In this document: in pieces, positions 4,929 to 6,887 of the stretch | How the letters are laid out: the number at the start of each line of letters is the position of its first letter | Numbering within the stretch: position 1 is the stretch's first letter | Virus record (IMG/VR): IMGVR_UViG_2778261559_000018 | Length of the DNA stretch: 19,220 nucleotides | Source: a virus | Lineage: Duplodnaviria > Heunggongvirae > Uroviricota > Caudoviricetes | Direction: 5' to 3' (one strand) | Program-made: the position numbers and the translations under genes | The notes under the pieces: generated by a model | Seen by the model: only the letters and a program-made list of their open reading frames with translations | Told to the model about the DNA's origin: nothing | The model's database searches: none

Positions 4929-6887
4929 TTACGCCGTACATTTCACCAGACCGCGGTGATCAACTGGCGCGACACCGGCGTCAATACGCACTTTCGTTGT
5001 CACGCCATCCACACTGAAGCCCTCCATCTGATCAATATATGGCGTATCCACACCGTTGAGATAAGCCACTTCAATCGTATCGGAGCCTTTTGACGCAGCC
5101 AGGTAGAAGGTGGTCTGGCTGTTATCATCAAGACGAGGCTCTGCAATAACGGTCGCAAAATCTTTCACCGGGTTAATAATACCGGCGTTAATGTCAGCCC
5201 CCTTGACACTTGAGGAGCGAATGACCTGGTTAGCAACAGACTCCATCGCCGTCGGTACCAGTACGAACGCAGGACGAATATTCAGATGACGCTCCCCCTC
5301 TTTCTGAACGCGCATCACCTGGCGGGCTTTATCCAGCGATGCCACGTCCATTGCAGCGCTCTCCAGTACGTTTGCATGTTTCGCTTTATCGAACAGACTT
5401 ACATTATCTGTGGAGATTTTCGGGTTAGACGTCAGAATGGCATAAACCAGATCGGCAATAGTGGATTTCGCCGCACGGCCCAGTTTCATCGGGACATCGG
5501 TCAGCATATTCAGATCATCATTGATAATGGCCTGACGGGTGATACTGAACAGCTCGCCATAGGTCGCCAGTGCAATAGTGGCCTGTTTATCTCCGGTGGT
5601 GACGTATTTATATTCCGCCCCTTCACGCACCTGACGCAGAGCACTGAAGCCCCCCATACCCACACGATGGGCAATTTTAAAATCAGACAACTGACCTTTC
5701 CGCGTCCACTGTTCATAGGTTTCAGGGGCATCTTCCCAGCCCTGCAGAATGGCTTTGTTCGCAACATCCAGCAGAATATTACCGAAGTCAGACGTACTGT
5801 GTGTGAACGCCGCACCGACCATCTGCATCGGGTTATAACCGGAAACCCCAATACCCCGTTCAGTTAGTGACATACGGGCATATTCACGCAGGGTCATCCC
5901 GTTGTAGACATTATCACGTTCGGTTTTTTCAAATCCGGCACGCGCCATCAGCGCCTGGCGAATCCCGTCCCCCACAAAATTACCGTTACCGGCATAAATA
6001 TGAGCCGGGGTATTTTTATTGGATGGCGTGGACTCGCGCCCCATCTCGTTCAACAGCTTTTCACGGGCCTGCTCCAGCGAACATTCAGGATCGGCAAGAC
6101 ACTGAGCCTGCAGCGTCTGATAACGCCCGCCAAACATGGCAAACAGATCATTAATACCGTTTACACGCGCTTTTTGCTCTGCCAGTACCTGCGCACGGAT
6201 GCTGTTTTCATCCACCACGGGTGCTGCTGCCTGCACTGGCGTCCAGGAGGCTTCAGATTCATTATCCTGTACGCGTGGAGCACTGTTGCGTGGCGGAGTA
6301 ATCATGTTTCGAATGGATTCCGGCATCTTTTTAAATTCCTCTGTACGTTTTGACTGAATACATGCCATTGCCTTAACGGCTGGCGTTACCTGATCAGCAA
6401 ATCCATGTGCCAGACATTCGGCACCGGACATCCAGGTCTCATCCGCCAGCATGGCAGCAATTTCATCGGTGGTTTTCCCGGTTTTCTGTGCATAAGCGGG
6501 TAACAGAACCGCCTCAACTTTATCGAGCAGGTCGGCATAGGTGCGCATGTCCTCCGCATCACCGCCCGTAAAGCCAAATGGTTTATGAATCATCATGAAG
6601 GTGTTTTCCGGCATAATGACCGGGTTTCCTACCATCGCAATGACCGACGCCATTGACGCCGCCACACCGTCGACATAAACGGTAATGGACGCACCATGTG
6701 TTTTCAGCGCATTAAAAATGGCGATGCCTTCAAAGACATCGCCACCCGGTGAATTAATATGGAGATTAATGTGGGTGATATCGCCCAGTGCATTCAGATC
6801 ACTGATAAACTGCTTCGCTGTAACACCCCAGAAACCAATCTCGTCATAAATATAAATATCCGCGTCACTCTGGTGACCAGCCTGCAT
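4929..6887 (-). CDS. Fused prohead protease (ClpP/S14-like), scaffold-like linker and HK97-fold major capsid protein
   Basis: N-terminus DADIYIYDEIGFWGVTAKQF...SPGGDVFEG...ASMASVIAM is a ClpP-like prohead protease signature; Ala/Gln-rich middle; C-terminal 320 aa resemble HK97-type capsid proteins; one continuous ORF starting at the Met just after the portal stop. Confidence 0.85.
   Translation of the reverse strand: MQAGHQSDADIYIYDEIGFWGVTAKQFISDLNALGDITHINLHINSPGGDVFEGIAIFNALKTHGASITVYVDGVAASMASVIAMVGNPVIMPENTFMMIHKPFGFTGGDAEDMRTYADLLDKVEAVLLPAYAQKTGKTTDEIAAMLADETWMSGAECLAHGFADQVTPAVKAMACIQSKRTEEFKKMPESIRNMITPPRNSAPRVQDNESEASWTPVQAAAPVVDENSIRAQVLAEQKARVNGINDLFAMFGGRYQTLQAQCLADPECSLEQAREKLLNEMGRESTPSNKNTPAHIYAGNGNFVGDGIRQALMARAGFEKTERDNVYNGMTLREYARMSLTERGIGVSGYNPMQMVGAAFTHSTSDFGNILLDVANKAILQGWEDAPETYEQWTRKGQLSDFKIAHRVGMGGFSALRQVREGAEYKYVTTGDKQATIALATYGELFSITRQAIINDDLNMLTDVPMKLGRAAKSTIADLVYAILTSNPKISTDNVSLFDKAKHANVLESAAMDVASLDKARQVMRVQKEGERHLNIRPAFVLVPTAMESVANQVIRSSSVKGADINAGIINPVKDFATVIAEPRLDDNSQTTFYLAASKGSDTIEVAYLNGVDTPYIDQMEGFSVDGVTTKVRIDAGVAPVDHRGLVKCTA

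What the first reader, a model, noticed from the sequence alone, without database searches (positions are those of the whole stretch)
4929..6887. Single-gene prohead protease, scaffold and capsid fusion replacing lambda C, Nu3, D and E
The head module follows lambda order (Nu1, A, W, B) but the next gene is one 652-aa ORF combining a ClpP-like protease domain, a coiled-coil scaffold-like linker and an HK97-fold capsid domain. It is followed by a weak attenuator. This is a mosaic joint between a lambda-type packaging module and an HK97-like head.
Basis: partly seen in the sequence, partly recalled or inferred. Interest (0 to 1): 0.4.

Follow-up and report, generated by a model that had tools for sequence, protein, structure and literature searches.

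The report
Known protease–scaffold–capsid fusion gene
This is an ordinary, already described prophage gene that joins the head protease, scaffold and coat protein in one reading frame, but comparison of relatives suggests it also makes a shorter scaffold–coat protein from a conserved internal start.

Summary
On the minus strand, right after a lambda-family portal gene, one ORF carries a ClpP-like protease domain, a helical scaffold-like segment and an HK97-fold capsid domain. It is not an artefact: 81 orthologues keep the single frame, and 2125 of 5426 complete E. coli genomes carry it. It is already known. It scores 984 bits against NCBIfam NF045540 (cutoff 475). [quoted passage not shown]

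Three corrections:
- The start is probably GTG 6956 (675 aa, strong ribosome-binding site, RefSeq's call), not ATG 6887.
- Lambda D is not replaced. A separate decoration gene (4519..4842) follows.
- The packaging, portal, capsid and decoration genes travel together as one old module, so there is no recent mosaic joint here.

The weak terminator is real and conserved in position.

One addition: an in-frame ATG at 6326, with an AGGA 10 nt upstream, is invariant in all 81 orthologues. Synonymous sites keep the AGGA, and the surrounding mRNA is unusually unstructured. A second fusion family with a different protease shows the same signal at its junction. This suggests, but does not prove, a nested 465-aa scaffold–capsid product.

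The parts
4929..6956 (-). Full-length gene: ClpP-like prohead protease / scaffold / major capsid protein fusion. 675 aa, 73.6 kDa, GTG start.
   Evidence: NCBIfam NF045540 scores 984 bits against a cutoff of 475. RefSeq CDS of an identical copy equals these coordinates. Masses.
6962..6968 (-). Ribosome-binding site AAGGAGG, 5 nt before GTG 6956. It lies inside the 3' end of the portal gene.
   Evidence: Duplex energy -11.6 kcal/mol. The site is conserved in most Enterobacterales orthologues.
6384..6821 (-). ClpP-like (S14-type) head maturation protease domain. Ser78 is at 6654..6656, His101 at 6585..6587 and Glu150 at 6438..6440 (652-aa numbering).
   Evidence: Pfam CLP_protease E 4.5e-36. NF045542 'head maturation protease, ClpP-related' scores 215.8 against a cutoff of 120. 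Alignment to solved ClpP places the AASM and MIH(K/Q)P motifs in register. Ser, His and Glu are invariant in 81/81.
6324..6341 (-). Candidate internal translation start: GAGGA at 6337..6341, a 10-nt A/T-rich spacer, then ATG at 6324..6326 (Met188 of the 652-aa call, Met211 of 675). The predicted product is 465 aa (50.7 kDa), scaffold plus capsid without the protease.
   Evidence: Met-Pro is invariant in 81/81 and AGGA is kept across different amino-acid pairs. Codon 183 ends in G in 80/80, against 11-50% at comparable codons. It shows 0 changes on the tree, against 5-22 at comparable sites. The mRNA here is the least structured part of the gene (mean z +1.77). A second fusion family shows the same pattern.
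6213..6323 (-). Variable Pro/Ala/Gln-rich linker (aa 189-225), predicted disordered.
   Evidence: Many indels and low conservation. pLDDT is below 50 for residues 1-35 of the 465-aa model.
6030..6209 (-). Scaffold-like segment of three helices (aa 227-286). The whole stretch from Met188 to about aa 295 is 108 aa (11.9 kDa).
Evidence: AlphaFold helices H40-63, H70-78 and H84-99 have pLDDT 87-95. Mass.
5985..6020 (-). Predicted disordered loop (aa 290-301, PSNKNTPAHIYA) between scaffold helices and capsid domain. This is the likely region of maturation cleavage (inferred).
   Evidence: pLDDT is below 50 for model residues 103-114. High conservation starts at aa 296.
4932..6002 (-). HK97-fold major capsid protein domain (aa 296-652; about 357 aa, 38.8 kDa if cleaved near aa 295).
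   Evidence: Pfam Phage_capsid_4 E 3e-54. A profile hits solved Mu-gpT-type capsid proteins 8rkc, 8rkx and 9jod at E 5e-10. The AlphaFold model has mean pLDDT 83. Foldseek gives 357 PDB matches at E<=0.001, all of the 50 listed being encapsulins, phage capsid proteins or an engineered protein nanocage (7mh2), including HK97 Head II 2ft1_F at E 1.7e-8.
4885..4905 (-). Short intrinsic-terminator-like hairpin (5-bp stem, GTAA loop) followed by T7, 24 nt after the stop codon.
   Evidence: Found by the terminator scan and in the RNA fold. Annotated as a terminator in phages Ayreon and mEp213. A hairpin plus T-run occurs at the same place in 72 of 85 loci, with a different sequence in each clade.
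4856..4874 (-). Second hairpin (7-bp G+C-rich stem, no T-run), 3 nt upstream of the decoration gene's GGAGA ribosome-binding site.
   Evidence: RNA fold of 4835..4935: -34.8 kcal/mol, z -2.1. Function not tested.
4519..4842 (-). Separate head decoration (cement) protein gene, 107 aa.
   Evidence: Pfam Phage_cement_2 E 9e-21. PHROG 122 'head decoration' E 1.8e-47. The same gene follows the fusion in Gifsy-2, Fels-1, F10, mEp213, a Stx2d-converting phage, Dulem virus 34 and Ralstonia-type loci.
6901..8409 (-). Lambda-family portal gene. Its last 56 nt overlap the fusion gene in another frame.
   Evidence: Pfam Phage_portal_2 E 8.5e-82. RefSeq coordinates.

Best explanation
This is the capsid gene of a lambdoid E. 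coli prophage of the mEp460 / cdtI / Gifsy-2 type. One reading frame encodes a ClpP-like serine protease, a roughly 100-residue helical scaffold and an HK97-fold coat protein.

Inferred from the published Gifsy-2, HK97 and lambda pathways: the scaffold drives coat subunits to assemble a procapsid around the portal. The attached protease is carried inside with them. It then cuts away itself and the scaffold, probably in the disordered loop near aa 290-301, leaving a coat protein of about 39 kDa. After expansion, the product of the next gene binds the shell as a decoration (cement) protein. A weak terminator after the gene may raise capsid mRNA relative to the downstream genes.

Added here and also inferred: the gene probably behaves as two nested genes. 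Ribosomes starting at GTG 6956 would make the full 675-aa protease-scaffold-coat chain. Ribosomes starting at the conserved internal site (ATG 6326) would make a 465-aa scaffold-coat chain resembling HK97 gp5. Only a fraction of the subunits would then carry a protease. Lambda C/Nu3 and herpesvirus UL26/UL26.5 use the same nested arrangement.

Confidence is about 0.95 for the identity of the gene and about 0.7 for the nested start.
For: Identity:
- Pfam and NCBIfam domain hits, including NF045540 at 984 bits against a cutoff of 475.
- 69.5% identity over the full length to the Gifsy-2 gene, with the same neighbours.
- 99% DNA identity to mEp460, cdtI, Ayreon and Tritos.
- PMC12315714 states that the Gifsy-2 prohead protease and coat genes are fused and that mEp213 heads are similar.
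- Ser78, His101 and Glu150 are invariant.
- The HK97 fold is confirmed by the model and Foldseek.
- A decoration gene follows.

Nested start:
- Met188-Pro189 is invariant in 81 orthologues of 47-99% identity (figures).
- AGGA 10 nt upstream is kept at the DNA level across the pairs EE, QE, ED, KD and KE; the single GD sequence (GGA GAC) has GGAGA instead.
- Codon 183 ends in G in 80/80, against 11%, 36% and 50% at comparable codons of low-, mid- and high-GC genes.
- That position shows 0 substitutions on the tree, against 5-22 at 21 comparable sites.
- The 50-nt window around the ATG is among the least structured 10% of the gene in 88% of sequences.
- In the independent fusion family NF045541 (HK97-type protease), the junction Met is present in 31/33 sequences, with AGGA or GGAG 7-10 nt upstream.
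- The junction Met is present in 141/145 sequences across both families.
- Unfused relatives exist: Dulem virus 34 has stop, GAGGAGG, then ATG.
- Ten Ralstonia-type contigs carry a 2-nt deletion that puts the protease out of frame but leaves the ribosome-binding site and ATG intact.
Against: No protein data were available. Nothing here shows that the 50.7-kDa product exists or that the protease is active.

In this one sequence the internal site is of ordinary strength: -6.0 kcal/mol, and 10 of 59 ATGs in the gene (any reading frame) score -5 or better. The 10-nt spacing is at the long end of the usual range. The full-length start has a much stronger ribosome-binding site, so the ratio of the two products cannot be predicted.

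The conserved Met-Pro could also matter at the protein level. The primary Gifsy-2 paper (Effantin et al. 2010) could not be read. I therefore cannot say whether internal initiation was already examined or excluded there.
Confidence: 0.9

Rival explanations
1. Only the full-length tripartite chain is made. Every coat subunit enters the procapsid with its own protease and scaffold. The conserved internal AGGA and ATG exist for another reason, such as a Met-Pro motif needed in the protein, a translational pause between domains, or an RNA feature.
For: The published description of Gifsy-2, as I recall its abstract, speaks of one composite gene and does not mention a second product. The full-length start has the stronger ribosome-binding site (-11.6 against -6.0 kcal/mol). 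By my own rough estimate, a T=7 prohead could hold about 415 copies of a 34-kDa internal domain.
Against: The constraint is on nucleotides, not amino acids. The AG|GA core is kept while the encoded pair changes (EE, QE, ED, KD, KE), and the synonymous third position never changes on the tree. The region is the least structured part of the mRNA. The same signal sits at the junction of a family with an unrelated protease. Unfused relatives start their scaffold-coat gene at this position.
Confidence: 0.25
2. This is the first reader's view: a recent mosaic joint where a lambda-type packaging module (Nu1, A, W, B) was recombined onto an HK97-like head, and the single gene also replaces the decoration protein D.
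For: TerL and the portal belong to the lambda gpA and gpB Pfam families. The scaffold is fused to the coat protein as in HK97.
Against: The same TerL-adaptor-portal-fusion-cement order recurs in Gifsy-2, Fels-1, mEp213, Stx phages, Providencia and Pseudomonas phages and in Ralstonia-type elements, so the unit is old. TerS is DUF1441, not the Nu1 family. The coat domain matches Phage_capsid_4 and Mu gpT-like families, not HK97's own family. The ClpP-like protease is closer to lambda C's clan than to HK97's protease; this rests on established peptidase classification, from memory. A separate decoration gene follows.
Confidence: 0.07
3. A sequencing or assembly frameshift has merged a protease gene and a capsid gene that are really separate.
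For: Unfused arrangements exist in distant relatives.
Against: The single frame is kept in 81 full-length orthologues from four bacterial groups. It is kept in 74 phage records. 1099 complete E. coli genome records carry copies at 99% identity or more. A curated full-length NCBIfam model exists.
Confidence: 0.01

Closest known systems
Salmonella phage Gifsy-2 'tripartite capsid gene' (Effantin et al. 2010, Virology 402:355; NC_010393 STM1034.3n)
   Same: Same three-part architecture (ClpP-like protease, central scaffold-like region, coat protein). It is 69.5% identical over the whole length. The neighbours are identical: TerS, TerL, small adaptor, portal, fusion, small decoration-type gene, a small conserved hypothetical gene, Z, U, V, G/T, H. 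The internal AGGA-ATG is also present.
   Different: This is a different host and allele. Structural data exist for Gifsy-2 but not for this phage group. The linker differs in length and sequence.
NCBIfam NF045540 'ClpP-like prohead protease/major capsid protein fusion protein' (E. coli phages mEp460, cdtI, Ayreon, Tritos and many prophages)
   Same: Full-length match well above the curated cutoff. DNA identity to those phages is 99%. RefSeq gives this exact name to identical copies.
   Different: None of substance. The window's copy is a typical member.
NCBIfam NF045541 'prohead protease/major capsid protein fusion protein' (e.g. Ralstonia phage YO178_1)
   Same: Homologous scaffold and coat portion (window aa 200-649 match it, E 2e-119). 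It is also followed by a Phage_cement_2 gene. It has the same conserved Met with an upstream AGGA at the protease/scaffold junction.
   Different: The N-terminal protease is HK97-type (Pfam PF04586; TIGR01543 proheadase_HK97), not ClpP-like. Some members are joined to contractile tails.
Phage lambda C / Nu3
   Same: A prohead protease and scaffold in one frame, with the scaffold also made from an internal in-frame start (established knowledge). This is the mechanism proposed here. The portal and terminase families are lambda's.
   Different: In lambda the coat protein E is a separate gene. Lambda's protease is SppA-like rather than ClpP-like. Lambda's decoration protein D belongs to another sequence family.
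Phage HK97 gp4 / gp5
   Same: The scaffold (delta domain, about 100 residues) is fused to the N-terminus of an HK97-fold coat protein and removed by the prohead protease. The 108-aa segment from Met188 to about aa 295 is of similar size. HK97 Head II is a Foldseek match.
   Different: HK97's protease is a separate gene of a different family. HK97 has no decoration protein and stabilises its shell by covalent crosslinks (established knowledge).
Herpesvirus UL26 / UL26.5 (protease-scaffold and nested scaffold)
   Same: In-frame nested expression that sets a low protease-to-scaffold ratio in an HK97-lineage capsid (established knowledge; the theme of PMC11565193, listed).
   Different: It is eukaryotic and achieved by separate transcripts. 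The coat protein is not part of the frame.

Membership tests
NF045540 ClpP-like prohead protease / major capsid protein fusion | Full-length match to the curated model above its cutoff | tested here: met
   984.3 bits against a cutoff of 475; aa 9-651 match profile positions 2-651 of 652.
NF045540 ClpP-like prohead protease / major capsid protein fusion | N-terminal ClpP-related head maturation protease with catalytic Ser and His | tested here: met
   NF045542 scores 215.8 against a cutoff of 120. The AASM and MIHKP motifs align to ClpP's Ser and His. Ser78, His101 and Glu150 are invariant in 81/81.
NF045540 ClpP-like prohead protease / major capsid protein fusion | C-terminal HK97-fold coat domain | tested here: met
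   Pfam PF25209 E 3e-54. Model pLDDT 83. Foldseek probability 1.00 to encapsulins and phage capsids, including HK97.
NF045540 ClpP-like prohead protease / major capsid protein fusion | Self-processing to a mature coat protein in virions | not testable with these tools
   Needs mass spectrometry or N-terminal sequencing of virions.
Gifsy-2-type head module | Gene order TerS, gpA-type TerL, small adaptor, lambda-family portal, fusion, cement protein, then lambda-like Z, U, V, G/T | tested here: met
Gifsy-2-type head module | T=7 shell with trimeric decoration protein at the threefold axes | not testable with these tools
   Reported for Gifsy-2 (PMC8538268; PMC8814770). No structure exists for this phage.
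Cellular ATP-dependent ClpP (TIGR00493 and related equivalogs) | Score above the equivalog cutoff | tested here: not met
   59.7 bits against a cutoff of 308.6; the other ClpP models are also far below their cutoffs. It shares the ClpP fold and family but is not a ClpP orthologue.
HK97 coat protein family (Pfam Phage_capsid, as I recall PF05065) | Pfam match | tested here: not met
   Only Phage_capsid_4 and Mu-like_gpT were reported at E<=0.01. The resemblance to HK97 is at the level of fold.
Lambda gpD decoration protein family | Sequence-family match of the downstream 107-aa protein | tested here: not met
   Pfam gives Phage_cement_2 and a weak Phage_cement hit only. There is no PDB sequence match. 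It is a functional analogue by annotation and by the Gifsy-2 literature. Its fold was not tested.
Nested in-frame genes (lambda C/Nu3 type) | Conserved in-frame start codon with a ribosome-binding site inside the longer gene | tested here: met
Nested in-frame genes (lambda C/Nu3 type) | The shorter protein is actually made | not testable with these tools
   Needs proteomics, toeprinting or start-site ribosome profiling.

The most novel reading that the evidence does not exclude
The widespread 'protease-scaffold-capsid fusion' genes of Gifsy-2-type and Ralstonia-type phages may really be nested gene pairs. A conserved internal ribosome-binding site and ATG at the protease/scaffold junction would produce most coat subunits as an HK97-gp5-like scaffold-coat protein. 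The full-length chain would supply a minority of protease-carrying subunits. The two start sites would then set protease stoichiometry, and fused and unfused states could interconvert by small indels. I found no report of this in the searchable literature. I could not read the primary Gifsy-2 paper.
Probability: 0.45. Interest if true: 0.5.

Novelty: already known. Interest (0 to 1): 0.3.

Why it matters
The architecture itself adds nothing new. It has been published for Gifsy-2, has a curated family model, and is present in about 39% of complete E. coli genomes.

The useful outputs are three corrections: the start codon, the separate decoration gene, and the absence of a mosaic joint. There is also one testable idea. 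If the internal start is used, it would explain how a phage that fuses its protease to its coat protein avoids packing several hundred proteases into each procapsid. It would also extend the nested protease/scaffold strategy of lambda and the herpesviruses to a very common group of prophages, including Shiga-toxin phages. For annotation, these genes should then be described as two overlapping products.

Tried and rejected
- Reading Effantin et al. 2010 by PubMed id failed because the paper is not held. Its content is cited only through other papers and my memory of the abstract.
- Literature searches for an internal start in these fusions found nothing relevant. Two candidate papers were opened and were irrelevant.
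- The first AlphaFold run, on the 675-aa protein with 16 close homologues, failed (mean pLDDT 35). It was used only for the helical segment. A second run on the 465-aa part with 145 diverse sequences worked.
- Single-sequence PDB search of the capsid part gave only weak hits at E 4e-4. A profile search improved this to 5e-10.
- PDB sequence search of the decoration protein found nothing.
- Met114 also has GGAGGA upstream, but only 1 nt before the ATG, too close to act as a ribosome-binding site, so I set it aside.
- The database holds 458-aa and 463-aa proteins that start exactly at Met188. I do not count these as evidence because they may come from truncated contigs.
- Frameshift artefact: rejected.
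Full report
**What is there**

All genes in the left 11 kb of the window run on the minus strand. In transcription order they are:
- a TerS-like protein (DUF1441, 10726..11283);
- a gpA-type large terminase (8618..10717);
- a 72-aa gpW-like adaptor;
- a lambda-family portal;
- the ORF in question;
- a 107-aa gene, a Gifsy-2-family head-tail protein, and lambda-like Z, U, V, G and T.

From ATG 6887 to the stop at 4929 the ORF is 652 aa. Pfam finds CLP_protease at aa 23-168 (E 4.5e-36) and Phage_capsid_4 at aa 354-649 (E 3e-54).

**The start codon**

The frame is open upstream of ATG 6887, and that ATG has almost no ribosome-binding site (-2.7 kcal/mol). Twenty-three codons upstream, GTG 6956 follows AAGGAGG at 5-nt spacing (-11.6 kcal/mol).

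An equivalent upstream start with a ribosome-binding site is found in most relatives. The ATG is missing in Gifsy-2, Fels-1 and the Pasteurellaceae. RefSeq annotates a 100% identical copy as exactly 4929..6956, 675 aa, overlapping the portal gene by 56 nt. I take 675 aa as the likely full-length product.

**Not an artefact, and very common**

A scan of one genome per species returned 79 loci. With six phage genes this gave 81 full-length orthologues from Enterobacterales, Pasteurellaceae, Pseudomonas and Shewanella, at 47-99% identity, all in one frame. Seventy-four phage records hold a full-length match. The gene occurs in 2125 of 5426 complete E. coli genomes, with up to six copies per genome.

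**Already known**

- The protein scores 984 bits against NCBIfam NF045540, 'ClpP-like prohead protease/major capsid protein fusion protein' (cutoff 475). Its N-terminus passes NF045542, 'head maturation protease, ClpP-related'.
- The DNA is 99% identical to phages mEp460, cdtI, Ayreon, Tritos and others.
- The protein is 69.5% identical over its full length to the Gifsy-2 gene, with the same neighbours.
- The Gifsy-2 gene is the subject of Effantin et al. [quoted passage not shown] I could not read that paper.
- PMC12315714 states that the Gifsy-2 prohead protease and coat genes are fused and that mEp213 heads are similar.
- PMC8538268 lists Gifsy-2 among phages with a trimeric decoration protein at each threefold axis.
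- PMC8814770 lists Gifsy-2 as T=7.
- Protease-scaffold-capsid fusions are also described in small actinobacteriophages (PMC7302621).

**Anatomy**

Alignment to solved ClpP structures puts the window's GVAASMAS and MIHKP on ClpP's catalytic Ser and His motifs. A Glu lies at the position of ClpP's Asp. Ser78, His101 and Glu150 are invariant in all 81 orthologues. The protein is far below the cutoffs of the cellular ClpP models, so it is a ClpP-fold head protease rather than a ClpP orthologue.

After the protease comes a variable, indel-rich Pro/Ala/Gln linker.

A first AlphaFold run with a shallow alignment failed (pLDDT 35). A second run on residues 188-652 with 145 diverse sequences gave mean pLDDT 83 and pTM 0.70. 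It shows:
- a disordered linker;
- three confident helices (aa 227-286);
- a disordered loop (aa 290-301);
- a compact domain.

Foldseek matches the compact domain to encapsulins and phage coat proteins, with 357 hits at E<=0.001. These include HK97 Head II at 1.7e-8. A sequence profile also reaches solved Mu-gpT-type coat proteins at 5e-10.

The stretch from Met188 to about aa 295 is 108 aa (11.9 kDa). The remaining coat domain is about 357 aa (38.8 kDa). From memory, this is close to the size of the HK97 delta domain. Cleavage in the disordered loop is my inference and was not observed.

- Lambda D is not replaced. The next gene (4519..4842) is Pfam Phage_cement_2 (E 9e-21) and PHROG 'head decoration' (E 1.8e-47). 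The same gene follows the fusion in every relative examined. It is not in lambda gpD's sequence family, and I did not test its fold.
- I see no mosaic joint between packaging and head genes. The set gpA-type TerL, adaptor, lambda-family portal, protease/scaffold/coat and cement protein stays together from E. coli to Ralstonia-type elements. In the latter it is attached to contractile-tail genes, so the joint there is between head and tail.
- The coat domain falls in the Phage_capsid_4 / Mu gpT-like sequence families, not HK97's.

**The terminator**

GGCCCGTAAGGGCT followed by T7 lies 24 nt after the stop and forms in the predicted RNA fold. It is annotated as a terminator in Ayreon and mEp213.

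A hairpin plus T-run sits 8-33 nt after the stop (mostly 20-30 nt) in 72 of 85 loci. Enterobacterales have a 4-5-bp GCCC stem, Pasteurellaceae have 9-12-bp stems, and Pseudomonas has G+C-rich stems. Position is conserved and sequence is not, which argues for function.

Late transcription in lambdoid phages is antiterminated, so the effect may be partial termination or mRNA 3'-end stabilisation. This is inference.

**A conserved internal start**

Just after the protease domain, Met188-Pro189 is invariant in all 81 orthologues, although the surrounding linker is variable. Ten nucleotides upstream, an AGGA core is invariant at the DNA level while the encoded residues change: GAG GAA/G (EE), CAG GAG (QE), GAG GAC/T (ED), AAG GAT/C (KD), AAG GAG (KE). 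One sequence (GGA GAC, GD) has GGAGA instead.

The controls are as follows.
- The third base of codon 183 is G in 80 of 80 sequences. Elsewhere in the same genes, Glu, Lys and Gln codons that precede a GA codon end in G only 11% (low GC), 36% (mid GC) or 50% (high GC) of the time.
- Third-position entropy is 0.10 bit at codon 183, against 0.9-1.9 bits at most neighbouring codons.
- On a neighbour-joining tree this position has 0 changes. The 21 other comparable columns have 5-22.
- The 50-nt mRNA window centred on the ATG is much less structured than the gene average (mean z +1.77). It falls in the least structured 10% of windows in 88% of sequences. In this window it is -1.4 kcal/mol, against a gene mean of -10.7.

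**Independent support from a second fusion family**

NF045541 joins an HK97-type protease to a homologous scaffold-coat module.

- In Ralstonia phage YO178_1 the junction reads GAGAGAGGAAAACACC ATG CCT.
- In 33 full-length members from viral contigs (38-98% identity), the junction Met is present in 31, usually as Met-Pro.
- AGGA or GGAG lies 7-10 nt upstream in all but one of those with the Met, again across different residues (REE, RKE, KE, QE, PGV, TEL).
- Across 145 proteins of both families the junction Met is present in 141.

Unfused states also exist. Dulem virus 34 has a separate protease gene, then TGA, GAGGAGG and the ATG of a 513-aa scaffold-coat gene. Ten contigs 97% identical to the Ralstonia fusion carry a 2-nt deletion in the (GA)n run just before the ATG. 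This puts the protease out of frame and leaves the ribosome-binding site and ATG intact.

**Interpretation**

The simplest reading is that the 'fusion' still carries the translation start of an ancestral scaffold-coat gene and uses it. It would then produce a 465-aa (50.7 kDa) protein like HK97 gp5 alongside the 675-aa chain. Lambda C/Nu3 and herpesvirus UL26/UL26.5 use the same logic.

I put this at about 0.7. The caveats are:
- there are no protein data;
- in this single sequence the site is of ordinary strength;
- the full-length start is stronger;
- Met-Pro might matter in the protein;
- I could not check whether the Gifsy-2 paper addressed this.

**Verdict**

The finding is real but ordinary and already described. 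Its interpretation needs three corrections. The nested-start hypothesis is the only part that might be new, and it can be tested directly.

Noticed in passing
window 17659..18914 (+ strand): A 1256-bp IS3-family insertion sequence (rve integrase-core transposase, ORFs 17694..18041 and 17861..18907) is present here and absent from phage Tritos, which is otherwise 99.5% identical. The flanks overlap by 5 bp. The insertion point falls about 140 nt before the 3' end of the Q antiterminator gene, so this prophage may be unable to switch on its late genes, including the capsid gene.
   Followed up: partly
window 6901..6956 (- strand): The likely GTG start and its AAGGAGG lie inside the last 56 nt of the portal gene in another frame. 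This stretch codes for two proteins, and the GenBank phage records (652 aa) and RefSeq (675 aa) disagree on the start.
   Followed up: yes
window 4856..4874 (- strand): A 7-bp G+C-rich hairpin (CAGCCCC-TGAAC-GGGGCTG) without a T-run sits 3 nt upstream of the decoration gene's ribosome-binding site. It might affect that gene's translation or mark an mRNA processing site.
   Followed up: no
window 11500..14300 and 16000..17500: These low-GC stretches (35-40%, against about 54% in the structural genes) lie between the lysis and terminase genes. They carry accessory genes on both strands: DUF1398 (ybcV-like, 12318..12743, +) and a cold-shock protein (16626..16841). The matching Tritos stretch also carries GnsB-, YnfN- and YbcW-like genes and two further cold-shock genes.
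   Followed up: partly
window 14317..15950 (- strand): A lysis cassette of P21-type holin, DUF1327 (ydfR-like), phage lysozyme and DUF2514 (Rz-like) lies upstream of the packaging genes, as in phage Tritos.
   Followed up: partly
L170-L173 (Logan contigs, Ralstonia-type element), junction about 2490-2511: A 2-nt (GA) deletion in a short GA repeat separates the protease from the scaffold-coat gene in ten contigs. Otherwise these are 97% identical to a fused phage gene. The head module there is attached to contractile-tail (sheath) genes.
   Followed up: partly
window 6538..6548 region (Met114 of the ORF): GGAGGA lies 1 nt before an in-frame ATG inside the protease domain and is strong (-5 kcal/mol or better) in 74 of 75 sequences. 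It is too close to that ATG to serve as its ribosome-binding site, so the reason for the conservation is unknown. It may simply follow from the conserved residues Gly-Asp-Ala-Glu-Asp.
   Followed up: no
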